Notes: generated by a model not told the origin, from the sequence alone. A DNA stretch of 64,000 nucleotides from Asaia bogorensis (GCA_945901855.1 CAMDLT010000020.1:2066-66065), one strand, 5' to 3'; shown: positions 5,336-33,902, counted from the first letter of the stretch. A program made the numbers and translations.

Positions 5336-5409
5336 CGCCGACGATCGCGGCCGACTCTCGTGTGCGAGGGTCGGCCGCCTTTCCCCAGGAAAAGGAAACA
5401 GACGCGCCC

Positions 5410-6396
5410 ATGCTGCGTTTCATCGTGTCGCGCCTTTTGTGGATGATCCCGTCGCTTGTGGCGTTGAGCTTTCTATCGTTCGTTCTCATCCAACTGCCGC
5501 CGGGCGATTACGTGACGACCTATATCGCCACGCTCGCCGCGTCGAACGAAGTCGTCGACCAGAACACGGCAGCCGATTTGCGCTCGCGCTTCGGGCTCGA
5601 CCAGCCGATCTATGTCCAGTACTGGAAATGGATCTACGGAATTGTCACGGAAGGAAATTTCGGCCTGAGCTTCGAGTGGCAGCAGCCGGTGTCGGAGCTT
5701 ATTTGGGAGCGCATGACGCTCACGCTGTTGCTGACCGTCTCGACGCTGATTTTGACCTGGGGAATTGCACTGCCGATCGGCGTGTTTTCAGCCGTCAAAA
5801 AATATTCGATCGGCGACTACGTCGCCACTTTTTTCAGTTTTCTGGGCCTTGCCGTTCCGAGCTTCCTGCTCGCGCTCGTGCTGATGTACGTAGCGGCCGT
5901 CCAATTCGGCCAGGAAGTCGGCGGGCTGTTCTCGGAGCCGTACAAGACCGCCCCTTGGAGCTTCGGCAAAGTTGTCGATTTGGCGGCGCATTTGTGGGTG
6001 CCGGTCGTGATCCTGGCGGTGTCGGGCACCGCGAGCCTCATCCGCGTGATGCGGGCAAATATGCTCGACGAACTCAACAAGCCCTATGTGACGACCGCGC
6101 GGGCCAAAGGGCTTTCGGAGTTTGCTTTGTTGGTCAAATACCCGCTGCGCGTCGCGCTCAACCCTTTCATCTCGACGATCGCATGGCTACTGCCCAACCT
6201 CGTGTCGGGGTCGATCATCGTGGCGATCGTCCTCAGCCTGCCAACGGCGGGGCCGATGCTGCTGCAATCGCTGATGAGCCAGGACATGTATCTGGCGGGC
6301 GCGTTCGTGCTGCTGATTTGCGCGTTGACGCTGATGGGTTCGCTTGTCAGCGACATTTTGTTGGCCCTCGTCGATCCGCGCATTCGGTTGGAGTAG
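5410..6396 (+). CDS. ABC transporter permease, DppB-like.
   Basis: MLRFIVSRLLWMIPSLVALSFLSFVLIQLPPGDY is the typical DppB/OppB N-terminus. Multi-TM. ATG placed at codon 69 of track ORF 5206..6396. Confidence 0.85.
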   Translation: MLRFIVSRLLWMIPSLVALSFLSFVLIQLPPGDYVTTYIATLAASNEVVDQNTAADLRSRFGLDQPIYVQYWKWIYGIVTEGNFGLSFEWQQPVSELIWERMTLTLLLTVSTLILTWGIALPIGVFSAVKKYSIGDYVATFFSFLGLAVPSFLLALVLMYVAAVQFGQEVGGLFSEPYKTAPWSFGKVVDLAAHLWVPVVILAVSGTASLIRVMRANMLDELNKPYVTTARAKGLSEFALLVKYPLRVALNPFISTIAWLLPNLVSGSIIVAIVLSLPTAGPMLLQSLMSQDMYLAGAFVLLICALTLMGSLVSDILLALVDPRIRLE

Positions 6397-6399
6397 CCA

Positions 6400-7523
6400 A
6401 TGGCAGCGCTTGCAGAAGGTTCGGTCGATACCAAGCAGCTTGCGGTCGCCTCGCAATGGCAGCTTTTGTGGTGGGCGTTCCGTCGTCACCATCTGGCGAT
6501 GATTGGGCTGGTGGTGGTTGCCTTCCTGTATCTGATTGCCGCTATCCCGGGGTTTTTTACGACGAACGATCCGGCGCTCCAAAACGCGCGCGCCGCTTTC
6601 CATCCGCCGCAGTCGATTCACTTCTTCGATACAAGTGCGGACGGCAGTTTCGCGATTCGACCCTATATCCATCCCTACACGCTGCGCCGCGACCCAACGA
6701 CCTTGGCGGCGAACTATATCGAAGACCGCGAACGCAAAATCTATCTGGAGTTTTTCGGCAGAGGCTACGAATACAAATTGTTTGGTCTGTTCACGGCCGA
6801 CCGGCATCTGTTTGCGTCGAGCGATCCTCGCCAGCCTTTGTTTCTGCTCGGCGCAGACCGGCTTGGACGGTGCGTGTTCAGTCGTATCATGCAGGGCGCG
6901 CAGATATCGCTGTCGCTGGGTCTTGTCGGCGTATTTCTGTCGCTCGTGATCGGCGTGGTGCTGGGCGGAATTTCGGGCTATTTCGGCGGCAGATCGGATT
7001 TCGTGATCCAGCGGGTCATCGAATTCATTCTTTCGCTGCCCACGATTCCGATCTGGCTTGCCCTTGCCGCAGCGCTGCCGCAGGACTGGCCCGCGACGAC
7101 GCAGTATTTCATGATCACGCTGATCCTGTCGTTGACGAGCTGGGCGCAACTCGCGCGCGTCGTGCGCGGACGCTTCTTGAGCCTGCGCACCGAAGAGTTC
7201 GTGGTCGCGGCACGCCTGGACGGCGCTTCGGAAGGTCGCGTGATCTTCCGGCACATGCTGCCAAGTTTCATGAGCCACATCATCGCGAGCATTACGCTCG
7301 CGGTTCCTGCCATGATCCTGGCCGAAACTTCGCTCTCGTTTTTGGGTCTGGGGCTGCAGCCGCCGACAATTTCGTGGGGCGTGCTACTGCGCGAGGCGCA
7401 GAATATCCGTTCGATCGCGACGGCGCCGTGGCTGTTTGCGCCGGGCTTTGCCGTCGTCGTCGCGGTAATGGCGCTCAATTTTCTGGGCGACGGCTTGCGC
7501 GATGCGGCGGATCCTTACAACAA

Positions 7524-7527
<4 letters not shown>
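6400..7527 (+). CDS. ABC transporter permease, DppC-like, with a long N-terminal extension.
   Basis: 375 aa. The C-terminal 280 aa are a DppC/OppC-type TMD ending ...ALNFLGDGLRDAADPYNK. Its stop overlaps the ATPase start (ATGA). Confidence 0.85.
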
Positions 7528-9218
<1,691 letters not shown>

Positions 9219-22645: not shown

Positions 22646-23749
22646 TCACGTGCGTGCGGCAAGTGCCTTGAAGGCGGGAACGAATGCGCCGTGTTCGAGA
22701 TACTTCATCCCGAACAAGCCGCCGCAGACGATCGATCCAAACGCCAGCAGCGAGCCCAGCGCCAGCGTGGAGAGGCCGGTGACGCCTTGGCCAATCGTGC
22801 AGCCAAGGGCCAGTACGCCGCCCGTTCCCATCAAGGCTGCACCCGCCAGATGGCGCAGCATATCGTCGGTACCGGCAAAACTCTCGATCCGAAATTCGCG
22901 TGCCGTCTTGGCGGCGACAAATGCGCCGAACACGACACCAAATACGCTAGCCACGCCAAACCCGATTTTGGCCCCGGTCCAGGTCATCAGATAGATTAGC
23001 GTATCGCCGATCGGCGCGACAAAGGTGAACGAGGCAAGGGGTGACGGTTCGAAATCGTCGTTGCCCGCAATGCCGGTCGCGTACCAGCCCGCGACAGTCA
23101 GCAGACCGATGCCGATTCCGGCCGCAATGTTGCGCGGGCTCTTGCAAAAACTTGAATCCTTGAAGCAAACCCAAGCGAGGAAGGCGATGACAAGAACGCT
23201 TGCCGTGCGTTGTGCAAATTGAGTTTCCAGGCCGGTCGCGGTTACGATCAGCGCGGGCAAGAGTTGGGTCTGGGCACCCAGCGTTCGGAGATCGAGATTG
23301 GTCGGCTCGATCGTCGCAATTCGGCCCGCCGCGATCAAACCGCGTAAGGTCATGTAGGCGAAGAGCCCGAGCACGATCATCACCAGCAGACTTTTGAGAT
23401 TCCCCGCCCCCAATCGGACGAGCGTCTTGCTGCCGCAACCGCCTGCCAGCGTCATGCCGAAGCCGAACATGAGGCCGCCGACAATGGCGCCAAGCCAGCC
23501 GAAATTCGGCGTGGCATAGATCGTCTTGCCAAGATCGACAAGGCCAAGGGCGCCGAACGTTTGCGTGCCTGCGACGGCGACGGCGATCGCCAGCAGCCAG
23601 GCACGAAAGCGCCTGAAATCTCCCAAGAGGGCGATGTCGGAAATTGCGCCCATGGTGCAGAAGTTTGTCCGATGGGCAAGAACGCCAAACCCGATCCCGA
23701 GCCCGAAGCCCCACATCGCAACAATTTGGTGGACAGGAAGGTCGGACAT
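22646..23749 (-). CDS. yeeE: YeeE/YedE-family inner-membrane transporter (TsuA-like thiosulfate/sulfur-compound transporter); two-repeat form.
   Basis: 367 aa. Two repeats each carry the conserved Cys motif (TLAGGCGSK and ALGCTIGQG). Polytopic. Confidence 0.8.
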   Translation of the reverse strand: MSDLPVHQIVAMWGFGLGIGFGVLAHRTNFCTMGAISDIALLGDFRRFRAWLLAIAVAVAGTQTFGALGLVDLGKTIYATPNFGWLGAIVGGLMFGFGMTLAGGCGSKTLVRLGAGNLKSLLVMIVLGLFAYMTLRGLIAAGRIATIEPTNLDLRTLGAQTQLLPALIVTATGLETQFAQRTASVLVIAFLAWVCFKDSSFCKSPRNIAAGIGIGLLTVAGWYATGIAGNDDFEPSPLASFTFVAPIGDTLIYLMTWTGAKIGFGVASVFGVVFGAFVAAKTAREFRIESFAGTDDMLRHLAGAALMGTGGVLALGCTIGQGVTGLSTLALGSLLAFGSIVCGGLFGMKYLEHGAFVPAFKALAART

Positions 23750-23875
23750 TTGGGGTTTTCCAGCTTGGGTTCGACGGGTCTTTAGAAAAGCTCAGGGGTA
23801 TCCTGAAAATGTAGCGCTTGCTTGGTCGAGGGCTCAACTCGTAGGGTCTGCTCCTTCAACAAGGATGCATCACAT

Positions 23876-24103
23876 ATGTCGGTTACCGTTCTCGATCTCA
23901 AGGGTCTCAATTGTCCGCTGCCGGTTTTGCGGACGAAAAAAGCGATGGCGAGCCTGCCTGCGGGCGCGGCGCTGCAAGTGCTGGCAACAGACCCTGGCGC
24001 CGTCAAGGATTTTGAAGCCCTGTGCCTGACGATCGGTGCTAAACTTTCGAATGTCGCTGAACAGGACGGCGTCTACGTGTTCGATATTCAAAAGAGCGCC
24101 TGA
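23876..24103 (+). CDS. tusA: TusA-like sulfur-carrier protein.
   Basis: 75 aa. LDLKGLNCPLPVLRTKKAM is the canonical CPxP TusA motif. Divergent from yeeE. Confidence 0.75.
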   Translation: MSVTVLDLKGLNCPLPVLRTKKAMASLPAGAALQVLATDPGAVKDFEALCLTIGAKLSNVAEQDGVYVFDIQKSA

Positions 24104-24117
24104 AACCGGTTCGTGGA

Positions 24118-25020
24118 TTGATCGACAGGAAATCGCACAACGAAGGCATCTGGTTGCTCGCTGCGTTGGCGCTCCTTTGGGGCGCCAATTGGCCTGCGAT
24201 GAAACTTGCCGTTGGCGAGATCGGCCCGTGGACCTTTCGTACAATTTGTCTTTATGTCGGCGCTGGCGGCCTATTTGCCGTGGCGCTTGTCCGACGCATT
24301 CCCATGGGATTGCCGCGGGGGCGTATCGCGGTTTTTGCCGCGACGTCGTTTTTGAACGTGACGGTGTGGCATGTGACATCGGCTTATGGCCTTACGTTGC
24401 TCGCGGCAGGGCGCGCTGTTTTGGTGGCATTCACAATGCCGCTTTGGGCCGCCTTGTTCGGCGCGTTGTTCTTCGGCGACAAGTTTACACAGCGCAAGGT
24501 CGTGGCCTTGAGCTTGGGGCTCGTGGGGTTAGGTTTTTTGGCGCTGCCCGCAAGCGATACGCTGGGCAGTTCGCCTGCCGGACTGGGGCTGATGCTGGCG
24601 GCTGCGGTCGGCTGGGGCGCGGGAACCGTGTGGCTCAAGGCCTCGCGCTTTGAAATGTCGGCCGTGACGCTGACTGCCTGGCAACTGGCCCTCGGCGGCG
24701 TACCGGTCATCGTTGGCATGCTGGCGCTCGAGGTTGCGGGTATCGGCGGCGGAACCGTGCTTAAAAACGACTCTCCGTCGCTGGCGGGCTTGGTTGGTTT
24801 GATCTATGCCGCGACTGTGCCCATGGTTTTCTGCAATTGGGCATGGTTCCGGGCACTGGAGATTTTGCCGGCGTCTCTGGCCTCGATCGGCACGCTGGCG
24901 GTCCCGGTCGTCGGCGTTCTGGCGTCGGCGCTGTTGCTGGGGGAGACGGTCGGCTGGTCGGAAATGATGGCGCTTGTGTGCGTCGTTGCAGCCCTTGCTT
25001 TGGCGTTGCTGCAGTTCTGA
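24118..25020 (+). CDS. DMT-superfamily (EamA-type) transporter.
   Basis: 300 aa, 10 TM helices, two EamA repeats. Confidence 0.7.
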   Translation: MIDRKSHNEGIWLLAALALLWGANWPAMKLAVGEIGPWTFRTICLYVGAGGLFAVALVRRIPMGLPRGRIAVFAATSFLNVTVWHVTSAYGLTLLAAGRAVLVAFTMPLWAALFGALFFGDKFTQRKVVALSLGLVGLGFLALPASDTLGSSPAGLGLMLAAAVGWGAGTVWLKASRFEMSAVTLTAWQLALGGVPVIVGMLALEVAGIGGGTVLKNDSPSLAGLVGLIYAATVPMVFCNWAWFRALEILPASLASIGTLAVPVVGVLASALLLGETVGWSEMMALVCVVAALALALLQF

Positions 25021-25022
25021 CC

Positions 25023-25631
25023 TTAGTCGGCGACCACGGCAGCTTTGCGGGCGGCTTTCCGGGTTTGGTGCCGATGCACGAGGAAAACCAAGCCCGTTGA
25101 AACCACGAAGACGCCCAACATGACATAGAGGAAGGAATGGACGATATCGCCGATCATGGCGTCGAGCGCGCGTCCAAACAGATAACCGAAACCCGCAAAC
25201 GTGGATGCCCAGACGAATGCCGCGACGAAATTGAGGGCGGCAAATCGCAGCGGGTTGATGCGCGCGACGCCCATCGCAAATGACGCAAGGTTCCGTACGC
25301 CATAAATGAACCGGAACGACAGGATGAACCACGTATCGTAGCGCTTGAGCAGGTCGAGTGCGCCGTCAACGCCCGCGCGCCATTTGGGACGCTTTTCGAG
25401 CAGAGCGCTGCCGTATCGCCGACCGATCCAGAACCACATTTGGTCGCCGGAGAAACTTCCGAACCAAGCCGTGAGCAGCAAAACCCAAATATTCAGCGTA
25501 TCTTGGGCGGCAGCCGCACCGGCAAAAATGACGAAGGTTTCGCCTTCCAAAAACGTCCAAACAAAAATTACCGCGTAAATCAGGACGCCGTATTGTGCAA
25601 CGAGGCTTTGAACATCGGTCGAGGGTTCCAA
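25023..25631 (-). CDS. DedA/SNARE-associated family membrane protein.
   Basis: 202 aa with the DedA-like pattern (...FLEGETFVIFAG...GSALLEKRPKW...). Confidence 0.65.
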   Translation of the reverse strand: MEPSTDVQSLVAQYGVLIYAVIFVWTFLEGETFVIFAGAAAAQDTLNIWVLLLTAWFGSFSGDQMWFWIGRRYGSALLEKRPKWRAGVDGALDLLKRYDTWFILSFRFIYGVRNLASFAMGVARINPLRFAALNFVAAFVWASTFAGFGYLFGRALDAMIGDIVHSFLYVMLGVFVVSTGLVFLVHRHQTRKAARKAAVVAD

Positions 25632-25745
25632 GCGACTGTCCTTACATCGAGATTGTCGGTCGTTTTTATGCTACAAATGGGCTATGACGCTATCATGTTC
25701 CGGTCTCGAAAAAAGATGCACGAACGCGATTTTCGGAGATTTGCG

Positions 25746-25994
25746 ATGAACGGTTATTCGGTTTTTGTTGCAATAGTGGCGCTTGGCTTGGGTATCGGAA
25801 TAGGTGCGCCGCCCGCACTGGCGGCCGACGATCCGCGCTCCAACAATGCGCCGCCAAAGGTCAATAAAGAGGCCGAAGAGCTCAATACCCGCAATCCGCG
25901 CGTGTTTCATGCGGGTCCCGGAAAGCCAATGGCAGGTGGAGTATGGGTTGCGCCGTCAAGCATACCCAAGAAACCCGCGGCTGACGCCAAATAA
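25746..25994 (+). CDS. Small secreted hypothetical protein.
   Basis: 82 aa. Signal peptide MNGYSVFVAIVALGLGIGIGAPPALAADD. Start chosen downstream of the dedA overlap. Low confidence. Confidence 0.35.
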   Translation: MNGYSVFVAIVALGLGIGIGAPPALAADDPRSNNAPPKVNKEAEELNTRNPRVFHAGPGKPMAGGVWVAPSSIPKKPAADAK

Positions 25995-25999
25995 TAGGC

Positions 26000-26413
26000 T
26001 TACGGCGAAGATTTAACCGGTACGGCGCTGAATGCAGGCGCCTCGGAGCACTCGGTCACGCCGCCCAGCGTGCGGATGCATCGATAGCGCGCATTGGGAT
26101 CGATTTTGGCGACCGGAAACTCGGGTTCGTTGAAGCGCGCCATTTGTTCGCAGATCAGACGTCGGTCGCCGGTTAAGAACATACCGTCGCAGCGTCCCGG
26201 CAAAAAATTCGGTCCGACTAAAATCGCGGCGCCAACCACGCCCGGCGTCACGATGCTTTGCACGTAAGGGGCAGCAAACGTGCTGACTTTGTCAGGTACC
26301 TTCGATAGCGGAGGGCTGCCGTGAACCGAAGGCAGTTTGGTGCAAGCCGCCGCGAATAGGGCAGCGCCAGCGACTAAACAAACGATCCGAATGGAGCGAT
26401 TTATCTTCAACAT
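26000..26413 (-). CDS. Secreted protein / possible lipoprotein, unknown function.
   Basis: 137 aa. N-terminus MLKINRSIRIVCLVAGAALFAAAC with a Cys after the hydrophobic stretch (weak lipobox). Preceded by a very AT-rich upstream region (26414-26466). Confidence 0.5.
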   Translation of the reverse strand: MLKINRSIRIVCLVAGAALFAAACTKLPSVHGSPPLSKVPDKVSTFAAPYVQSIVTPGVVGAAILVGPNFLPGRCDGMFLTGDRRLICEQMARFNEPEFPVAKIDPNARYRCIRTLGGVTECSEAPAFSAVPVKSSP

Positions 26414-26466
26414 TTCTAAAATTTATCCCAAATATATTAATGAATGATGAACATACGCTTGAGATT

Positions 26467-27246
26467 TCAAGATTCCCGTCGATAATCATCCAAATCTCTG
26501 AAGAATCTGGAAAAAGCCGATGCCGGTGTCACACCGGTAGCAGCCTCGAAGCGCACAACTTCTTGGAGCGTAAGCCGCTTCACGGGGGCAAAAAGCGTAT
26601 CGAAGATCGCCAAGAAATCGCTTTTGGCGAACTGAGCAACATCGAGACCATCGCCGATTTGGACATATTTGTTGGGGGCAAGGCCGATCGATGTCTGCTT
26701 GTGCTGCATGATGCGAAAGAACCATTCGCGGCGCGTGTCGAAGCGCTGGAACGATTGCGCAATCCGCACGAGCGTCAACCAGAAAATCGTCTGGGCGCGC
26801 GGATCCGAATAAAACGCGTCCCAACCAAAATCGTCGCCGCCTTTGTCGCGCGTTTCCTCCAGCACTTGCGCACAGGCGGCGTTCCATTCGCCTTCTCTCT
26901 CGCCGACCAATGCCTGGACGAAGAAAAAGAAATTGTGGAGCAGACTGCGGTCGAGCTGCGCGGACGCAAAAAAATCGTCAAGCGGATGCACGATCAAACG
27001 GCCGAACGCATTGACGCGACGATGCTGGTTCTGCGACTGGGCAATTGCCGCAACGATTTGGACGAAGACGGCGCGGTAGAAATTTTCGACTTCGCCGGCG
27101 TTTTTCATCGCATCGCCGATACGCGCGAGCTCGTCGTGGCCGACAGTACCGCCGTTTTTTGCGGCGGTTTCCTGGGCGGTCTTCACGAATGCGTCGAGCA
27201 TCGTGGTTGCCGCATGTCGGATCAGTTGGGGGCCTTTTGAAAACAT
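26467..27246 (-). CDS. Hypothetical protein, 259 aa, Trp/Phe-rich, no recognisable domain.
   Basis: I chose the minus strand over the codon-aligned plus-strand ORF 26440..27240 because the plus-strand translation is Arg/Glu-skewed in the way antisense shadows typically are. The strand call is uncertain. Confidence 0.45.
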   Translation of the reverse strand: MFSKGPQLIRHAATTMLDAFVKTAQETAAKNGGTVGHDELARIGDAMKNAGEVENFYRAVFVQIVAAIAQSQNQHRRVNAFGRLIVHPLDDFFASAQLDRSLLHNFFFFVQALVGEREGEWNAACAQVLEETRDKGGDDFGWDAFYSDPRAQTIFWLTLVRIAQSFQRFDTRREWFFRIMQHKQTSIGLAPNKYVQIGDGLDVAQFAKSDFLAIFDTLFAPVKRLTLQEVVRFEAATGVTPASAFSRFFRDLDDYRRES

Positions 27247-27351
27247 TCGGACAAGTCTAGACCACTTGGCGCCTCGGGGGGAAATGCTGCGAGGCTTCTA
27301 TCGGACGGATTTCTTGGCTAACATAAGGTTATCTCGGACGAGGATCAAAAA

Positions 27352-28026
27352 ATGTTGGAAATCAAACCAGTCGAAACGTCGGGTGGAATCGCTGTTCTGG
27401 ATGTCGGCGGCGACAAAGCGGGCCAAGCGACTCTTATTTGGGCCGACGACAATTTCTGCGAGGCGTTCGAAGGCGCGACCGTCGGCGCCGCCCCGTTCGG
27501 TGCGGACGCTGACCCGCAAGTGACGGCGGCCTTGGAGGGGTTGAAGCAGGGGGCTGTGGCACGTTTCGATGCGCCGACGGGCACGCTGTTTGGGCATCGT
27601 CTGGAAAGCGCCATCGGCATTGTCGGGCTGGGCGGCAAGCGTGTGCTGCTGGCGCTGGCAACCGCCCCGCAGATGCTGGGCCACACGGCCGATGCGCGTC
27701 TGGCCGAAACGCTCGACGCCGTGCCGGTCGCCGCGAGCATGATCAAAACGAGCGACGGGACGATTTTGTGGCTCAACGAAAATTTTCGGGAGTTGCTGGA
27801 CGGCAGCGAGTTCGATCTTCTGGGAACGTCGTTGGCCGACCATTTTGTGCTGCCCGGCGTATTTGCAACGCTGATGTCGGCAACAGACGCGATTGCGCCC
27901 TCCACGCCTGTCCCAACGCCCCTAAAGACGCTGTCCGGCATCATGACGCCGGTCGTTGCGACTGCAAAACGTATACGGTTTCGCGGTCACGACGCGGCGC
28001 TGGTGTGCCTGGCCAGCGGGTTTTAG
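27352..28026 (+). CDS. Stand-alone PAS-domain protein (two PAS-like halves, no output domain).
   Basis: 224 aa. The second half (ASMIKTSDGTILWLNENFRELLDGSEFDLLGTSLADHF) has the PAS-core pattern. The first half is more weakly PAS-like. No TM segment and no kinase, GGDEF or HTH domain. Confidence 0.5.
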   Translation: MLEIKPVETSGGIAVLDVGGDKAGQATLIWADDNFCEAFEGATVGAAPFGADADPQVTAALEGLKQGAVARFDAPTGTLFGHRLESAIGIVGLGGKRVLLALATAPQMLGHTADARLAETLDAVPVAASMIKTSDGTILWLNENFRELLDGSEFDLLGTSLADHFVLPGVFATLMSATDAIAPSTPVPTPLKTLSGIMTPVVATAKRIRFRGHDAALVCLASGF

Positions 28027-28034
28027 CGCGGGTT

Positions 28035-29105
28035 CTAGATCCCGGATTTGCGCGCGGCTTCTTCGAGTTCGTCGATCATCTGCATGCCCGGGACGACCTC
28101 CGAGCGCACGAACTCGAGGCGCTTGTTGGGGCCGCCGCTGGCGGTTGGAAACCGGTCGCGCCATAGCTGCATTTTGACCGACAGCCCGCAGAGCACGCCG
28201 CCGATCGAGCGGTGGTTCGAGAACACCATATCCTTCATGCGGCTGAAGCTGTCGGCGTTGATATCTTTCCAGAAATCGGCGCTCTTGCGGTTAAAAGCTT
28301 CGAACCGGCCCGTCAACGAGATGATCACGCCCGACATCGAATCTCGGGTCTTGTCCAGCATCTGCTTGGACATGCGATCGCCCTTGATCATCTGGTTGTC
28401 GTCGAGCGGCTTGACCCAGTCGAGAAAACTTTGGACCTGGGGCACGACCTTGTCGAGGCACGAGCGGAAATAGGCCAGCGACAAAAACGTATCGCCGTAA
28501 TCTTCGAGGAAGCGCGGAATTTCGGTCAGCGGCACGTTCAGCTTTTGGGACATCATGCGCAGATTCTTGAGCGCATCGTCGCGATTGGGCGCGGTGAGCA
28601 GCTTCATGATGTCCGAAACGTCGTTCACCTCGAAATCCGCCGTGCCGTAGATCTGCTGTATCAACGGATGGGTAAACACCTTCATGTGTTGCGTAAGTTC
28701 TTGGCGTTTGCCTTCCGAAAGCTGCAATTCCTTGTTGACGTCGATATTGAGAGAGAGCGAACGCAGCGCAACGCGCAGCGTGTAGACGTCGAAAGACGGA
28801 ATGGCGCTCAGATTTTGCAGCAGCGGCATGTCCTTGCGCAGTTCGGTCGCACAGCTTTGGAAAACGCTGTGCAATGCGTCGAGGGGAACTTGCGCCGATT
28901 TGTGGCCTTGGTATTTGTAGAGTTCGACAACCGAATCGAGCCGCACGTTCTTTATGAGACGCAGCCTGCGCAACCCCGGCGTTTCGAGCGGGATAATGCT
29001 GAGGGGCAAGATATGAAGCGCATCTTGACCCTCCGCATCGTATTCGGCATTGGCAGCTTCGCCTGAAGCAGGCGTCGGACCATCGATCTTGGTGCTTTGT
29101 TCCAT
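28035..29105 (-). CDS. Hypothetical cytoplasmic protein, 356 aa; no recognisable domain; co-oriented directly downstream of the cheZ-like gene.
   Basis: Long ORF with protein-like composition. GC is lower here (about 57%) than in the flanks. 78-nt spacer to the cheZ-like gene on the same strand. Confidence 0.6.
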   Translation of the reverse strand: MEQSTKIDGPTPASGEAANAEYDAEGQDALHILPLSIIPLETPGLRRLRLIKNVRLDSVVELYKYQGHKSAQVPLDALHSVFQSCATELRKDMPLLQNLSAIPSFDVYTLRVALRSLSLNIDVNKELQLSEGKRQELTQHMKVFTHPLIQQIYGTADFEVNDVSDIMKLLTAPNRDDALKNLRMMSQKLNVPLTEIPRFLEDYGDTFLSLAYFRSCLDKVVPQVQSFLDWVKPLDDNQMIKGDRMSKQMLDKTRDSMSGVIISLTGRFEAFNRKSADFWKDINADSFSRMKDMVFSNHRSIGGVLCGLSVKMQLWRDRFPTASGGPNKRLEFVRSEVVPGMQMIDELEEAARKSGI

Positions 29106-29182
29106 GTTGAGCGCTTTTTACGCCGTAAGAGCCGTCAATACCAGCCCCGATCTTGGTCTGCGGTTGTTGGCGCGTCCGCGCA

Positions 29183-30076
29183 TCAGTCGAAAAGCTTGTC
29201 AATATCCGCCTGCGACGCCGTCGCGCCAGCAGTGGCGGGCGCGGGAGAGGGCGGCGCTGGCGGCGGCGTAGCTTGTTTGGCAGCTGCCGGGGGCGGGGCG
29301 GGCGCTGGGGCGGGTGTCGGCGGTGCTATGGGTGCGGGTGCGTCAAACCCTGCACCGGCCAACAGCGCGTCGATCTCATCTTGCGTGCGGCCTTGGCCGG
29401 GCATAGCCGGTCCATTCAACAGATGCGCATCGCCGCGGGTGTCGGCATTTGCATCGCGTTTTGCAACGCCGCCCGGCAGATTCTCGGCGCCCCAAATTTC
29501 GACCATCGCGTTGACGCGCTGGTCGATATAGCGAAGCGTGCTGACGACTTTGGAGATGCGCTGGCCGGTAATATCTTGGAACGAGCAGGCCGTAAAAATC
29601 TCGGTTGCTTGGTCGCTCAGCACCTGGCCTGCTTCGGCGCATTCGGTCGGAAGATTTCCGGCAACTTCCATAATGCGCTCGGCTGCATTGAGAATATCCG
29701 AGGTCGCGCGCTCGGTCGAAGCCACGATCATGTCGAGCTCGCTGGTCGCGCTGTTGATGCGGTTGTCGGTAACGGCGAGTTTCGGGTCCTTGTTGTAGAT
29801 CGAAGCGATTTCGGATTTTGCGGCCTGGATATGGGCGGCCATGCTTTGCAATTCGGCACGCAGCACATCGATGCTCTGGGTTTCCTTGGCACTCGACATT
29901 TGCTTGATCGTCCACTCGCGGAACGAGGCGGCGATGCGCCGCGCTTCGTCGAGCGCCACTACGCGCGAGCGCACGTCGCGGGCGCGCAAGAAGGCGCGGC
30001 CGCGCGTGCTGTTCAACAGCGCGTCCTCGATGGCGAAATATTCTTCGTCCGAAAGTTCGATCTTCGTCATTGGCAA
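29183..30076 (-). CDS. cheZ: CheZ-family CheY-P phosphatase homolog; orphan.
   Basis: The C-terminal half carries CheZ hallmarks: FTACSFQDITGQRISKV (the catalytic-Q FQDLTGQ motif), LLNGPAMPGQ (compare LLNGPQ) and a terminal DEIDALLAGAGFD (compare E. coli DDLLDSLGF). A Pro/Ala-rich linker lies near the C-terminus. Confidence 0.75.
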   Translation of the reverse strand: MPMTKIELSDEEYFAIEDALLNSTRGRAFLRARDVRSRVVALDEARRIAASFREWTIKQMSSAKETQSIDVLRAELQSMAAHIQAAKSEIASIYNKDPKLAVTDNRINSATSELDMIVASTERATSDILNAAERIMEVAGNLPTECAEAGQVLSDQATEIFTACSFQDITGQRISKVVSTLRYIDQRVNAMVEIWGAENLPGGVAKRDANADTRGDAHLLNGPAMPGQGRTQDEIDALLAGAGFDAPAPIAPPTPAPAPAPPPAAAKQATPPPAPPSPAPATAGATASQADIDKLFD

Positions 30077-30134
30077 CCTGCAGATAAAAGATGTGGCGTG
30101 ACGCGCAAGCTAGTCGGAATTGGCTAAGAACGGG

Positions 30135-31277
30135 TTAAAGTTTGCCCTCGATGGCGGCTCTGAAAATTCGCTCAAGGTCGCCATGCTCGACTTTGCAGGG
30201 ATTGCCGCCTGCCGACGGATCGGCCGCCGCCATCGCCCCGATTTCGGCCGCCCGCGACGTATCGATCCCCAGCATGGCGAGCGTGGGGGGAATTTTCAAC
30301 AGGTCGCGAAACTGCAAGACCCAAGCAAAGACCGTATCGAAATCGGCGCGCGGCAAATCGAGGGAACGCGACAAGTTCGGCATACGCGCGGCGATCGCAG
30401 CGCGATTGTGGCGCATGACATAAGGCAGCAAAATAGCGTTGGTCAGACCGTGATGCGTGTCGTAGACGGCACCGATCGGATGGGCAAGCGCGTGGACGGC
30501 GCCAAGCCCCTTTTGGAAGGCGACGGCACCCATGCTGGCGGCGGCCAGCATCTGCGCGCGCGCTTCGATGTCGGCGCCGTTGGCGACAGCGCGTGGCAGA
30601 AACTCTTTCACCAGGCGCATGCCTTCGAGCGCGATGCCATCGGCCATGGGATGGAATCCGGGCGCGCAATAGGCCTCGAAGCAATGCACGAACGCGTCGA
30701 CGCCCGTCGCGGCCGTCATATGCGCAGGCAGGCCAATGCTCAGTTCCGGATCGGCGATCACGATGCCGGGCATCATTTGTGGGTGAAAAATGATTTTTTT
30801 GACGTGCGCCGCCTCGTCGGTAATGACCGAAGCACGTCCGACTTCGGAGCCCGTGCCGGCGGTTGTCGGCACCGCGACGACCGGCACCATCGCGGCCGGA
30901 TCGACGCGCTTGAAATTATCGCCGACATCCTCGAAGTCCCAGAGCGGCCGCGTCTGGCGGGCCATCAGCGCGATGGCCTTCGCCGCATCGAGGCCCGATC
31001 CGCCGCCAAACGCGATAACGCCGTCATGCGCGCCCGCGCGCAAGGCCGCGACGCCGTCGGCAACGTTGGTACCCGTCGGGTTGCCGCGGACTTTGGCAAA
31101 AAGCGTCGCGCCCGAGAGGGCCAGCGCTTTTGCTACCATCGGCGTCGATGCAAGTCCTGCATCCGTGACCAGCAGCGCATTGGCAATGTGCAGGCGCTTG
31201 AGCGCTGCGGGCAATTCGTCCAACCGACCTGGCCCCGACCAGATTGTCGTGGGGTAGTTCCAATTGCCCTTTACCAT
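30135..31277 (-). CDS. Iron-containing (group III) alcohol dehydrogenase.
   Basis: 380 aa with the Fe-ADH family pattern (GGGSGLDAAKAIA, ...VAVPTTAGTGSE..., metal-binding His residues). Confidence 0.85.
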   Translation of the reverse strand: MVKGNWNYPTTIWSGPGRLDELPAALKRLHIANALLVTDAGLASTPMVAKALALSGATLFAKVRGNPTGTNVADGVAALRAGAHDGVIAFGGGSGLDAAKAIALMARQTRPLWDFEDVGDNFKRVDPAAMVPVVAVPTTAGTGSEVGRASVITDEAAHVKKIIFHPQMMPGIVIADPELSIGLPAHMTAATGVDAFVHCFEAYCAPGFHPMADGIALEGMRLVKEFLPRAVANGADIEARAQMLAAASMGAVAFQKGLGAVHALAHPIGAVYDTHHGLTNAILLPYVMRHNRAAIAARMPNLSRSLDLPRADFDTVFAWVLQFRDLLKIPPTLAMLGIDTSRAAEIGAMAAADPSAGGNPCKVEHGDLERIFRAAIEGKL

Positions 31278-31291
31278 CGCAGCCGCCCGCC

Positions 31292-32740
31292 TCAGATGAT
31301 TTCGAAATAGCGCTGCAGCTGCCAGTCGCTGATCGCTTTATTCGCCTCACGCTGTTCCCAGTCGCGGCTGGCGGCATAATGCGCGACGAATGGTTCGCCG
31401 AACAGGTCTTTGGCGACCGACGAGGCGGCCAATCGCGTCGCAGCTTCGCCCAACGTGCGCGGCAACTGCAATTCGGGCGGCGGAACCAGATCGTAGGCGT
31501 TGCCGACGACCGGGGCCGTCGGTTCGATCTTGTGCTCGATACCCCACAGTCCGGACCCAAGGGCCGCAGCAAGTGCGATGTAGGGATTGATATCGGCCGC
31601 GGCGACCCGGTATTCGACGCGCTGCGACTTCGGCGCGCCGGGGATTGCGCGTAGCGCCGTGGTGCGATTGTCGATGCCCCACAGCGCCGCTGTCGGGGCC
31701 CAGAAACCGGGGACAAGTCGCGTGTAGGAATTTACCGTGCAGGCCACCATGGCGAGCAACTCGGGCATCAGCTTTTGCTGGCCGCCGATGAAGTGGCGCA
31801 TCGTATCTGAAATGCCATGCGGCTTGGTTTCGTCGTGAAAGACGGGCCCACCGGCCGCGTTCTGCAGCGACAAATGCAGATGGCCCGACTGGCCCGGCCA
31901 GTCGTGCGACCATTTCGCCATGAATGTTGCCATACGATTTTGGCGTTGGGCGAAAACCTTGGCGAAGGTTTTGAACAAAGCGGCTTTGTCTGCGGCGGCG
32001 ACGATATCGTCGTAGAGCAGCGCCGCCTCGAGCACGCCCGCGCCCGTCTCGGTGTGCAGGCCTTCGATCGGCACGTCCATCGCGCGCATCGTGTCGAGCA
32101 GCGCGTGATAGAATTCCGCATGCACGGAACTGCGCAGCATCGAATAGCCAAAAGACCCGGGCGTAAGAGTCTTCAGGCCGCGATAGTTTTTCTCGCGCAC
32201 CGATACGGGCGTTTCCTCGAACACAAAGAATTCGAATTCCGCGGCTGCTTTGGCAGCAAGCCCCATGTCGGCCGCGCGCTGGACGACGCGCCGCAACGTG
32301 CCGCGCGGACAAACGGTTTCAGCCCGACCCGCAAATTCGGCCAGAAAAAGCAAGGTTGACGGCTCGAACGGGACCGCGCGGCAAGTCTCGGGCAGCACGC
32401 GAACCGGCGCGTCGGGATAGGCGGTGTGCCAGCCCGTGTATGTCGCGCAATCGTAAAGCTGGTCGTTCGAATCCCAGCCAAGCACAACGTCGCAAAATCC
32501 GAATCCGGTCTGCAGCACGGAGCGGAATTTCTCGCGCGACAGATATTTGCCGCGCATGACTCCGTCGATATCGAACAGACCGACTTTCACATTGTCGATT
32601 TTGCGCGCGTCCAGCAGGGCGGCGGCTTGTTCGGCAGTTTTGACGTCGCGGGGTCCGGTTGCGGGCTCCCGGTCGCCGGCCAGATCAGGCGGCACGGCGC
32701 AGATCCAGTCGGCTCCAGACATCAACCAGCGCCTCGACAA
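31292..32740 (-). CDS. Glutamine synthetase-family ligase (GlnA-like type; gamma-glutamyl-amine synthetase PuuA/GlnT-like).
   Basis: About 470 aa with GS catalytic-domain motifs. The annotated 5' end overlaps the hemA 3' end by 56 nt. The true start may be an internal GTG/ATG. Confidence 0.75.
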
Positions 32741-33902
32741 GCTGATCCATCAGCCCATCGTCGTGGAAGGGGGTGGCGGTCAAACGCAGCCGTTGCGTGC
32801 CGCGCGGCACGGTCGGGAAATTGATCGGCTGGACATAGATCGATTTTCGCATCAGCAGTTCGTCGCTCGCCTGTTTGGCGAGGCGCGCGTCGCCGACGAG
32901 CAACGGCACGATGTGCGTGGCCGACGGCATCACCGGCAGTCCTGCTTGGACCAGCAACCGCTTGAGGCGTTCGGCGCGTTCGGCCAGTTTGGCGCGCGCG
33001 GCTTGGTCGCTTTTGAGATGGCGGATGGCGGCACGCGCACCGGCTGCCACGACCGGCGGCATCGAGCTCGAGAAAATGAAGCCGGGGGCCGTGCTGCGGA
33101 CAGCATCGCACAAAGCCGTCGAAGCCGCGATATAGCCGCCGACCACGCCAAAGCCCTTGGCGAGCGTGCCTTGCACAATGTCGAGGCGCGCTTGCGCGCC
33201 ATCGCGTTCGGCAATGCCGGCGCCGCGCGCGCCGTAAAGACCGACCGCATGCACTTCGTCGAGATACGTCATCGCATCGTATTTTTCGGCGAGGTCGCAA
33301 AACGCGTGGATCGGCGAAACGTCGCCGTCCATCGAATAGACGCTCTCGAACGCGATCAGCTTTGGGCGCGACGGTTCGATCGATTGGAGCTGGGCTTCGA
33401 GATCGGCCGCATCGTTGTGGCGAAAGACGAGTTTGTCCGCGCCCGAATGGCGAATGCCTTCGATCATCGAGGCGTGGTTGAGCGCATCGGACAAGATCAC
33501 GACGCCTGGCAGCAGCCGCCCGATCGCCGACAAAGCCGCCTCGTTGGCGTTGTAGCCGGAACTGAACACCAAGGCCGCCGGCTTGGCATGCAGATCGGCC
33601 AGTTCGCGCTCGAGCAAAACATGCTGGTGGTTGGTACCGGAGATGTTGCGCGTTCCGCCCGCACCGGCCCCGTTCGCGACGAGCGCCGCCTGCATGGCGG
33701 CAAGCGTGTCGGGATGCTGGCCCATGCCCAGATAGTCGTTCGAGCACCATACGACGATGTCGCGCGGTCCCTCCGGCGAATGCCAAGTCGCATGCGGAAA
33801 GGCGCCGCATTTGCGCTCGAGATCCGCAAACACGCGGTAGCGGCCTTCGGCCTTCAAAGCGCCGATGGTGTCGGAAAAATAGCGTTCATAGTCGCGTCGC
33901 AT
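32685..33902 (-). CDS. hemA: 5-aminolevulinate synthase (alpha-oxoamine synthase family, C4 haem pathway).
   Basis: 405 aa. Near-colinear similarity to Rhodobacter HemA: ...[17 protein letters not shown].....[16 protein letters not shown].....[13 protein letters not shown]...ELADLH...[10 protein letters not shown]...[17 protein letters not shown]. Confidence 0.85.

What the first reader, a model, noticed from the sequence alone, without database searches (positions are those of the whole stretch)
25640..30135. Lower-GC islet of uncharacterised genes built around an orphan cheZ: candidate undescribed signalling module
From about 25.7 to 30.1 kb the GC content falls from about 65% to roughly 56-60%. 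The intergenic spacers here are very AT-rich (for example 26414-26466 is about 25% GC). The genes in this stretch are: two small secreted proteins; an unknown Trp/Phe-rich 259-aa protein; a stand-alone double-PAS protein with no output domain; an unknown 356-aa cytoplasmic protein; and a CheZ-family phosphatase gene. There is no cheA, cheW, cheY, cheR, cheB or MCP gene anywhere in the 64 kb. A CheZ-type phosphatase apparently co-transcribed with a large unknown protein and sitting next to an output-less PAS sensor suggests a self-contained phospho-signalling accessory unit. The compositional offset suggests horizontal acquisition.
Basis: partly seen in the sequence, partly recalled or inferred. 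Interest (0 to 1): 0.7.

Follow-up and report, generated by a model that had tools for sequence, protein, structure and literature searches.

The report
CheZ paired with unknown motility protein
The region is not a foreign island, but its chemotaxis phosphatase gene cheZ sits next to a 356-residue protein from a large uncharacterised family that turns up beside cheZ, inside chemotaxis operons and inside flagellar gene clusters in many other alphaproteobacteria, so it is a good candidate for an undescribed motility component.

Summary
The GC dip is small: 58.0% against 62.2%. It comes from AT-rich spacers, the amino-acid make-up of the 356-aa protein, and slightly low GC3 in the 259-aa and lipoprotein genes. 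cheZ, the 356-aa gene and the PAS gene have native codon usage.

The "islet" joins two ancestral blocks. cheZ, the 356-aa gene and the convergent PAS gene are conserved in all 17 related Tagaea-like loci. In 14 of them the PAS gene closes a cheA(REC)-cheW-PAS operon. The 259-aa/lipoprotein/secreted/DedA block lies about 57 kb away in a complete relative. Horizontal acquisition and a self-contained unit are therefore not supported.

The cheZ–356-aa link is supported. The 356-aa family has about 980 sequence clusters (526 at 50% identity). It matches no Pfam, NCBIfam or PDB entry and no solved fold. It sits next to cheZ in at least three deep clades, in several orientations and sometimes inside full che operons. 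An Azospirillum paralog ends a flagellin-flaF-flbT operon inside a flagellar cluster. A CtrA-like box precedes cheZ in 13 of the 17 loci.

Best reading: cheZ and a new motility-associated accessory protein form one output unit. What that protein does biochemically is inferred, not shown.

The parts
29183..30076 (-). cheZ, a CheY-P phosphatase of the alphaproteobacterial type. The likely true start is the ATG at 30070, giving 295 aa. It has two C-terminal CheY-docking-like motifs (QDEIDALL at residue 232 and QADIDKLF at residue 289) separated by a Pro/Ala-rich linker.
   Evidence: Pfam CheZ 8e-16, 59 bits against cut-off 30.7. NCBIfam CheZ models match only below their cut-offs (42.1 and 17.7 bits against 257 and 350). 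ACSFQDITGQ at 163-172 carries the AXXFQ and DXXXQ motifs described in PMC7750401. GC3 is 0.71.
30124..30138 (-). CtrA-box-like motif TTAACCCGTTCTTAG (TTAA-N7-TTAG), 54 nt upstream of the cheZ ATG and overlapping the Fe-ADH stop codon. It is a candidate promoter element of the cheZ–356-aa unit.
   Evidence: It is the only match to TTAA-N7-TTAR in the 64 kb. In 13 of 17 Tagaea-like loci the only match in each 8-13 kb locus lies 57-104 nt upstream of cheZ, including L017 where the upstream gene differs. The link to CtrA rests on general knowledge of the consensus, not on a test here.
28035..29105 (-). 356-aa protein of an uncharacterised family linked to motility and CheZ. It starts 77 nt downstream of cheZ and is probably co-transcribed. 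It is predicted to be cytoplasmic, with a small N-terminal beta domain (about residues 30-75) followed by long helical bundles.
27352..28026 (+). 224-aa soluble protein with one PAS domain and no output domain. It converges on the 356-aa gene with stop codons 8 nt apart. In most relatives it is the last gene of a cheA(REC)-cheW-PAS operon.
   Evidence: PAS_4 at 20.3 bits, below the 23.1 cut-off. The L017 ortholog passes the PAS_8 and PAS_4 cut-offs; its PAS (PF00989) score of 21.9 bits falls below the 22.6 cut-off. The family profile matches the PpsR and FixL PAS domains. Only 31 homologs exist, all in the genus. Synteny with CheW and CheA holds in 14 of 17 loci.
27247..27351 (.). Spacer at the rearrangement junction. 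To its right lies the cheZ/356-aa/PAS block. To its left lies the 259-aa/lipoprotein/secreted/DedA/EamA/TusA/YeeE block. In other Tagaea genomes cheW-cheA lie here instead.
   Evidence: Comparison of the window with L001-L017 and with L084 from OZ257249.1, where the two blocks lie about 57 kb apart.
26467..27246 (-). 259-aa Phe-rich, all-helical orphan protein. It belongs to the neighbouring block and shows no link to cheZ.
26000..26413 (-). 137-aa probable lipoprotein (signal peptide ending ...LFAAAC). Part of the neighbouring block.
   Evidence: Translation. No family match. Conserved next to the 259-aa gene in L001, L002, L007 and L084.
25722..25994 (+). Small secreted protein of about 80-90 aa with a signal peptide ending ...APPALAADD. 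Part of the neighbouring block.
   Evidence: Translation. No family match. Conserved in L001, L002, L007 and L084.

Best explanation
The stretch holds the output end of a flagellar chemotaxis pathway in an uncultured Tagaea-like member of the Rhodospirillales.

Shown:
- cheZ and the 356-aa gene form a tight same-strand pair that is conserved across the genus.
- A PAS-only protein converges on this pair. Ancestrally it closes a cheA(REC)-cheW-PAS operon.
- In this lineage a rearrangement replaced cheA-cheW with an unrelated, genus-conserved block (259-aa protein, lipoprotein, small secreted protein, DedA and so on). That is why cheZ looks orphaned here.
- The 356-aa protein belongs to a large family with no Pfam entry. 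Its genes recur next to cheZ, inside complete che operons, and at the end of a flagellin operon in a flagellar gene cluster.

Inferred:
- cheZ and the 356-aa gene are co-transcribed from a promoter that carries a CtrA-like box, as part of the motility regulon.
- The 356-aa protein is a cytoplasmic accessory factor that acts at the CheY-P / CheZ / flagellar-motor step. Most likely it is a helical scaffold that positions or modulates CheZ at the flagellated pole or motor. Alphaproteobacterial CheZ localises to the pole independently of CheA, through an unknown partner (PMC7750401).
- The PAS protein is a soluble sensor that feeds the neighbouring CheA.

The confidence of 0.6 applies to the claim that this is a motility or chemotaxis accessory protein functionally coupled to CheZ. 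The specific scaffold or localisation role deserves about 0.3.
For: - Genus-wide synteny: cheZ, the 356-aa gene and the convergent PAS gene occur in 17 of 17 loci even where both flanks differ.
- Distant family members at 27-35% identity lie directly after cheZ. In L085 the order is MCP-cheW-cheA(REC)-cheY-cheB-cheR-cheY-cheZ-[homolog], with a 1-nt gap. In L176 the gap is 4 nt.
- Eight of 80 metagenome loci from another clade have a Pfam-confirmed CheZ within 3 kb. It lies upstream, downstream or divergent, and often with cheY, cheB, cheR or cheA alongside.
- In Aerophototrophica, cheZ lies 1.3 kb from the homolog.
- The cheZ-linked members fall in at least three deep clades of the family tree.
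- By my rough estimate, a random gene has cheZ within 3 kb in about 0.15% of cases. Here it is 9 of 143 loci outside Tagaea.
- Independent link to flagella: in 3 Azospirillum species examined (11 plasmids carry the paralog), it is the last gene of flagellin-flaF-flbT-flaG-like-DUF1217-[paralog]. This sits inside a cluster with a response-regulator gene, fliI, flgC, fliE, fliQ and flhA.
- The conserved TTAA-N7-TTAG lies upstream of cheZ. A perfect TTAA-N7-TTAA lies between divergent cheZ and the homolog in L147.
- There is a 77-nt gap and no terminator-like site between the two genes.
- Genomes that carry family members also carry cheZ: R. centenum (with PMC2890560) and A. brasilense (with PMC12421955).
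Against: - Most family members are not next to cheZ. Many sit between truA and fmt-def (20 loci), or after hsp20 and a DUF1150 gene (33 loci), or in unrelated surroundings. The coupling is therefore frequent but not obligatory.
- There is no evidence of physical interaction. No multimer prediction could be run.
- The fold search returns only generic helical bundles, so the structure says nothing about mechanism.
- The 17 Tagaea loci are related genomes and count as one evolutionary event.
- The CtrA-like box has one imperfect half-site and is absent from L013-L016. Alone in the window it is not significant: 20 of 100 shuffles give at least one match.
- Only 5 of 147 homologs outside Tagaea have a perfect box upstream.
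- Co-transcription has not been measured.
Confidence: 0.6

Rival explanations
1. The 356-aa family is a flagellar assembly or flagellin-regulation factor, for example an export or regulatory partner acting alongside FlaF/FlbT. It has no direct action on CheZ or CheY-P. It sits near cheZ only because both belong to the same motility regulon.
For: In Azospirillum the paralog ends a flagellin-flaF-flbT-flaG-like-DUF1217 operon inside a flagellar gene cluster. In the window, cheZ and the 356-aa gene share a candidate motility promoter.
Against: In che operons the partner directly beside it is cheZ, with gaps of 1-4 nt, not a flagellar structural gene. The adjacency to cheZ survives changes of order and orientation. 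Many genomes keep the gene far from any flagellar gene.
Confidence: 0.22
2. One reading: a horizontally acquired, self-contained phospho-signalling islet made of the two secreted proteins, the 259-aa protein, the PAS protein, the 356-aa protein and an orphan cheZ.
For: The region has the lowest GC in the window, 58.0% against 62.2%. Its spacers are AT-rich. GC3 is slightly low in the 259-aa and lipoprotein genes. No other che gene lies in the 64 kb.
Against: GC3 and tetranucleotide usage of the cheZ, 356-aa and PAS genes are native. There is no tRNA, mobility gene or flanking repeat. Both halves are conserved in the genus but lie about 57 kb apart in a complete relative. cheA-cheW abut the PAS gene in 14 of 17 relatives. 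The 259-aa block never travels with cheZ outside this lineage.
Confidence: 0.04
3. No functional link exists. The 356-aa protein is a housekeeping or stress-related cytoplasmic protein, and its adjacency to cheZ is inherited synteny plus chance.
For: The commonest contexts are truA | gene | fmt-def, and hsp20-DUF1150 followed by the gene. Seven of nine sampled distant representatives have no cheZ nearby.
Against: Adjacency to cheZ recurs in at least three deep clades with different gene orders, and the gene is embedded in che and flagellar operons. This is far above chance.
Confidence: 0.12

Closest known systems
Stand-alone CheZ of Azorhizobium caulinodans ORS571 (alphaproteobacterial CheZ; PMC7750401, PMC8429497)
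   Same: A cheZ located away from the main che cluster. A long N-terminal helix region. Both the AXXFQ and DXXXQ motifs and a C-terminal CheY-binding peptide. No CheA-binding residues are described for this class, and polar localisation does not depend on CheA.
   Different: In A. caulinodans the neighbour is cheY. Here the neighbour is the 356-aa unknown, and no cheY lies within 64 kb. The Tagaea and Aerophototrophica CheZ proteins carry two docking-like motifs separated by a Pro/Ala linker. I could not check whether A. caulinodans has a member of the 356-aa family.
ChePep with CheZ(HP) in epsilonproteobacteria, and CheA-short with CheZ in E. coli (partners that localise CheZ, as summarised in PMC7750401)
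   Same: The concept is the same: a dedicated partner places CheZ at the pole. A lineage-specific protein of otherwise unknown function is genetically tied to CheZ.
   Different: There is no sequence or fold relationship. The 356-aa protein matches no Pfam family, so it lacks a recognisable receiver domain, which ChePep has according to my own knowledge. No interaction or localisation data exist. This is a resemblance in how it might work, not family membership.
Lineage-specific che-operon accessory proteins such as CheS and CheT of Sinorhizobium meliloti (PMC8429497)
   Same: Small families confined to alphaproteobacteria, encoded within che operons, that tune CheY-P turnover.
   Different: Those proteins are much smaller (from my own knowledge) and act in systems that lack CheZ. 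The 356-aa family co-occurs with CheZ and also appears in flagellar clusters.
Hybrid CheA-REC / CheW chemosensory clusters (survey of CheA architectures, PMC10542144)
   Same: The relatives' neighbouring operon encodes CheA with Hpt, dimerisation, HATPase, CheW-like and C-terminal REC domains, followed by CheW.
   Different: In Tagaea the operon ends in a PAS-only protein instead of an MCP, CheR or CheB. In the window's lineage cheA-cheW are no longer adjacent.

Membership tests
CheZ (PF04344) CheY-P phosphatase | Profile match above the curated cut-off | tested here: met
   59 bits against 30.7, covering residues 146-244 and profile positions 107-203. The N-terminal half of the profile is not matched, as PMC7750401 reports for alphaproteobacterial CheZ. 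The NCBIfam equivalog models are far below their cut-offs.
CheZ (PF04344) CheY-P phosphatase | Catalytic DXXXQ motif with the adjacent AXXFQ motif | tested here: met
   ACSFQDITGQ at residues 163-172. It is identical or nearly so in all 17 Tagaea loci and in L076. Motif definitions come from PMC7750401.
CheZ (PF04344) CheY-P phosphatase | C-terminal CheY-binding peptide | tested here: met
   SQADIDKLFD lies at the extreme C-terminus, and a second copy, QDEIDALL, lies at residue 232. This rests on motif resemblance only.
CheZ (PF04344) CheY-P phosphatase | Dephosphorylates CheY-P | not testable with these tools
   Needs biochemistry.
Complete chemosensory (che) cluster | CheA, CheW, CheY and a receptor encoded nearby | tested here: not met
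   None is found in the 64-kb window. CheA(REC) and CheW are adjacent in 14 of 17 related loci.
PAS-domain sensor | A PAS fold recognised by profile | tested here: met
   The window protein scores 20.3 bits, below the 23.1 cut-off. The L017 ortholog passes the PAS_8 and PAS_4 cut-offs; its PAS (PF00989) score is below cut-off. The family profile matches the PpsR and FixL PAS domains at E of 1.5e-4 to 4e-3.
   hhalign of the N-terminal half against the C-terminal half gives a probability of 1.8%. The N-terminal half does contain LIWADDNF, which resembles ILWLNENF in the C-terminal half. No structure model was made.
Horizontally acquired genomic island | Codon and oligonucleotide composition that deviates from the host | tested here: not met
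   GC3 of cheZ, the 356-aa gene and the PAS gene is 0.71-0.76, against about 0.75 for the window. The tetranucleotide z-score over these three genes is 0.9 or less. There is a mild offset only in the 259-aa, lipoprotein, DedA and TusA genes.
Horizontally acquired genomic island | Mobility hallmarks (tRNA target, integrase, flanking direct repeats) and patchy distribution among close relatives | tested here: not met
   No tRNA. No flanking repeats beyond chance-level short matches. Both blocks are present throughout the genus.
ChePep-like or CheA-short-like CheZ localisation partner | Sequence or fold homology to a known CheZ partner | tested here: not met
ChePep-like or CheA-short-like CheZ localisation partner | Binds CheZ and controls where it sits in the cell | not testable with these tools
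   Needs multimer prediction, two-hybrid or pull-down assays, and imaging.

The most novel reading that the evidence does not exclude
The 356-aa family is a previously unrecognised, widespread alphaproteobacterial chemotaxis and flagellar component that could be called a CheZ-associated protein. It would bind CheZ, CheY-P or both and tether the phosphatase to the flagellated pole or the motor switch. That would supply the missing CheA-independent localisation or regulation partner of alphaproteobacterial CheZ. Its most conserved N-terminal segment (D-x-x-x-R-D-A/S-L-H-I-L-P-L, just before the small beta domain) may act as a docking peptide resembling those of FliM and CheZ.
Probability: 0.25. 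Interest if true: 0.75.

Novelty: new variant of a known kind. Interest (0 to 1): 0.6.

Why it matters
How CheZ is positioned and controlled in alphaproteobacteria is an open question. PMC7750401 shows that localisation there is polar and independent of CheA, with no known partner. This analysis nominates a concrete candidate that can be tested. It is a conserved family with about 980 sequence clusters and no domain annotation. Its genes recur beside cheZ, inside che operons and inside flagellar clusters. It has one copy in Rhodospirillum centenum and two in Azospirillum brasilense, both genetically tractable. Even if the protein turns out to act on the flagellum rather than on CheZ, it would give a motility role to a sizeable family now annotated as hypothetical and would justify a new family entry. 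The work also shows that the apparent orphan cheZ islet results from a rearrangement and is not a foreign island.

Tried and rejected
- Foldseek against afdb50 was unavailable.
It worked with the narrower A3.
- Profile searches against PDB sequences gave nothing meaningful for the 356-aa or 259-aa families.
- hhalign of the 356-aa family against CheZ tested the idea of a degenerate CheZ paralog. The same was done against the 259-aa and PAS families. No similarity was found.
- PADLOC and PHROGs scans, run to exclude a defence or phage origin, found nothing.
- One homolog is named "DUF3150 domain-containing" by a source. Pfam scans of the window protein and of ten distant members do not reproduce this.
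- I tested whether a CtrA box is a general feature upstream of family members outside Tagaea. Only 5 of 147 have one, so I do not claim regulon membership for the family as a whole.
- Sigma-70 and terminator consensus scans were uninformative.

Full report
**1. What is in the sequence**

On the minus strand, reading 5' to 3', lie hemA (32685-33902), a glutamine-synthetase-like gene (31292-32740) and an Fe-alcohol dehydrogenase gene (30135-31277). Then come cheZ (29183-30076, probable ATG at 30070) and a 356-aa ORF (28035-29105). A 224-aa PAS ORF (27352-28026, plus strand) converges on the 356-aa ORF, with the stop codons 8 nt apart.

To the left lie a 259-aa ORF (26467-27246, minus strand) and a 137-aa lipoprotein gene (26000-26413, minus strand). 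Next to them is a gene for a secreted protein of about 90 aa (25722-25994, plus strand). Further left are DedA, EamA, TusA and YeeE genes.

Pfam confirms CheZ at 59 bits against a cut-off of 30.7. The 356-aa, 259-aa and two small proteins match nothing in Pfam, NCBIfam, PADLOC or PHROGs. tblastn with CheA, CheW, two CheY, CheB, CheR and an MCP finds no other che gene in the 64 kb.

**2. Composition**

The region is 58.0% GC. The window as a whole is 62.2%, and the flanks are 61.7% and 63.2%. About 4% of equal-sized windows are as low, and the minimum lies at 24.7-29.2 kb. The dip is therefore real but about 4 points, not the 5-9 points described.

It has ordinary causes:
- The spacers are AT-rich: 25% GC at 26414-26466 and 46% at 25632-25721.
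- The 356-aa gene is 56.6% GC only because GC2 is 0.36. Its GC3 is 0.76, equal to the window's genes at about 0.75.
- cheZ (GC3 0.71) and the PAS gene (0.73) are also native.
- Only the 259-aa gene (0.65), the lipoprotein gene (0.64), DedA (0.67) and TusA (0.63) are slightly low.

Tetranucleotide deviation peaks over 22.5-29 kb. Windows starting at 26-26.5 kb are normal. There is no tRNA in the window and no flanking repeat. Horizontal acquisition of the stretch is not supported.

**3. The islet is a junction of two ancestral blocks**

A genome scan with the 356-aa family returned 80 loci. The 17 closest, at 77-89% identity, are labelled Tagaea sp. or related Rhodospirillales MAGs. All 17 carry the cheZ gene, the 356-aa gene and the convergent PAS gene.

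In 14 of the 17, the PAS gene is preceded on its own strand by cheW and a 906-aa hybrid cheA with Hpt, dimerisation, HATPase, CheW-like and REC domains. Only the window and its three nearest relatives (L001, L002, L007) have the 259-aa/lipoprotein/secreted/DedA/EamA/TusA/YeeE block there instead.

In the complete chromosome OZ257249.1 that block, in the same internal order, lies at 2.25-2.27 Mb. The cheZ group lies at 2.18-2.20 Mb, about 57 kb away. The spacer 27247-27351 is therefore a rearrangement junction.

The 259-aa protein has 23 homologs, in Tagaea and Ferrovibrio. Its model is all-helical with pLDDT 71 and has no fold match. It has no evident connection to cheZ. The PAS protein is restricted to the genus, with 31 homologs. 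It evolves faster than its neighbours: 58% identity to L001, against 88% for the 356-aa protein.

Only one PAS domain, in the C-terminal half, is supported.

**4. The 356-aa family**

The family has 980 homologous clusters at 90% identity. It has 526 representatives at 50% identity, 213 of them with E below 1e-30. Nearly all are single-domain proteins of 330-370 aa. Ten distant members also lack any Pfam match.

**5. Neighbourhood evidence for a motility role**

(a) Next to cheZ or inside che operons.
- A distant member at 32% identity lies in MCP-cheW-cheA(REC)-cheY-cheB-cheR-cheY-cheZ-[homolog]-small histidine kinase, with 1 nt between cheZ and the homolog.
- Another distinct representative lies 4 nt after cheZ.
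- In 80 metagenome loci of yet another clade, eight have a CheZ within 3 kb. Five of these CheZ were checked against Pfam and all pass; all eight match a CheZ HMM built here. It lies upstream on the same strand (L099, L128, L129), downstream on the same strand (L131, L143, L153), divergent (L147), or across a few genes in a che cluster (L152).
- In Aerophototrophica crusticola, cheZ lies 1.3 kb away.
- On an identity-based tree the cheZ-linked members fall in at least three deep clusters.
- Adjacency that survives changes of order and orientation is the usual sign of functional coupling. Nine of 143 loci outside Tagaea is far above my rough chance expectation of about 0.15%.

(b) Inside a flagellar cluster.
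- Eleven Azospirillum plasmids carry a paralog at about 46% identity.
- In A. brasilense Sp7 p3, A. lipoferum 4B p5 and A. oryzae it is the last gene of flagellin-flaF-flbT-flaG-like-DUF1217-[paralog].
- This operon is preceded by a response-regulator gene. It lies next to fliI, flgC, fliE and fliQ in all three records, and next to flhA in A. brasilense Sp7 p3.

(c) Other contexts are unrelated.
- Twenty loci have truA | gene | fmt-def, and 33 have hsp20 and a DUF1150 gene upstream. Assorted others occur as well.
- In 17 Azospirillum loci an MCP gene converges on the gene.
- Rhodospirillum centenum has one homolog far from its two stand-alone cheZ genes (PMC2890560).

The coupling is frequent but not obligatory.

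**6. Expression**

cheZ and the 356-aa gene are 77 nt apart here and about 44-65 nt apart in relatives. No terminator-like site lies between them.

A motif TTAA-N7-TTAG lies at 30124-30138 on the minus strand. It is the only match to TTAA-N7-TTAR in the 64 kb. In 13 of 17 Tagaea-like loci the single match in each locus lies 57-104 nt upstream of cheZ. This includes L017, where the upstream gene is different. L147 has a perfect TTAA-N7-TTAA between divergent cheZ and the homolog, and L128 has a match 29 nt before cheZ.

From general knowledge, TTAA-N7-TTAA is the CtrA consensus, and CtrA drives motility genes in many alphaproteobacteria. This is inference. The motif is imperfect, it is absent from L013-L016, and it is not general for the family (5 of 147).

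**7. Interpretation**

Shown:
- A genus-conserved cheZ–356-aa pair.
- An ancestral link to a cheA(REC)-cheW-PAS operon.
- A rearrangement in this lineage.
- Recurrent association of the 356-aa family with cheZ, che operons and flagellar genes.

Inferred:
- The pair is co-transcribed within the motility regulon.
- The 356-aa protein acts at the CheY-P / CheZ / motor step, most plausibly as a helical scaffold or modulator that positions CheZ.

This fits a known gap. Alphaproteobacterial CheZ lacks CheA-binding residues yet localises to the pole independently of CheA. Epsilonproteobacteria use ChePep for this role and enterics use CheA-short (PMC7750401). The main rival is a purely flagellar role in assembly or flagellin regulation.

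**8. Comparison and novelty**

cheZ itself is an ordinary alphaproteobacterial CheZ. It has both the AXXFQ and DXXXQ motifs. Stand-alone cheZ genes are already documented in this class (PMC7750401, PMC8429497, PMC2890560).

What is new is the partner family. It appears in no family library. I found no description of it in four full-text searches on CheZ in alphaproteobacteria and on Azospirillum lateral flagella. I rate the finding as a new variant of a known kind: a chemotaxis output module with an undescribed accessory protein. Interest is 0.6.

Noticed in passing
window 29183-29480 (CheZ C-terminus); also L017 and L076: CheZ in Tagaea and Aerophototrophica carries two CheY-docking-like motifs. 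One is internal (QDEIDALL/QNEIDALL at about residue 232). The other is at the extreme C-terminus (SQADIDKLFD). A Pro/Ala-rich linker of 40-60 residues separates them. Shorter CheZ proteins from other cheZ-linked loci have only one.
   Followed up: partly
L093, L094, L103, L109 (three copies at 4410-8032), L159, L160, L162: The 356-aa family is tandemly duplicated or triplicated in several metagenome loci. Azospirillum keeps two paralogs, one chromosomal and one plasmid-borne.
   Followed up: no
L085 9049-9756; L086; L108 669-1367; L139; L143: A small soluble histidine kinase of about 235 aa, with no sensor domain, lies directly after or near the 356-aa homolog in several che-linked loci. It may be a third recurrent partner.
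   Followed up: no
L033, L036, L039, L042, L049, L055, L060, L066, L069, L072, L074, L077 and others, about 0.8 kb downstream of the homolog: In 17 Azospirillum-type chromosomal loci an MCP gene converges on the 356-aa homolog. In L077 it encodes 689 aa. Upstream lie hsp20 and a DUF1150 gene.
   Followed up: partly
window 30135-33902: hemA (5-aminolevulinate synthase), a glutamine-synthetase-like gene and an Fe-alcohol dehydrogenase gene lie on the cheZ strand with short gaps (14 nt between the GS-like and ADH genes). This trio is upstream of cheZ in L001-L012 but not in L013-L017.
   Followed up: no
window 26440-27240 (+), 28212-29066 (+), 29153-30127 (+): Long ORFs of 266, 284 and 324 aa run antisense to the 259-aa, 356-aa and cheZ genes. 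They are the usual high-GC shadow ORFs and not genes. Antisense ORFs also cluster across loci for the same reason.
   Followed up: partly
L001 8827-10527: The closest MAG relative has an extra 566-aa ORF between the 259-aa gene and the lipoprotein gene. The window lacks it. I did not identify it.
   Followed up: no
L179 8268-9250: Two BLUF photoreceptor genes converge on a distant 356-aa homolog in a TARA marine contig.
   Followed up: no
window 22646-25631: YeeE/YedE-like sulfur transporter, TusA, EamA and DedA genes form a block conserved in the genus. This block carries the strongest tetranucleotide deviation in the window.
   Followed up: no
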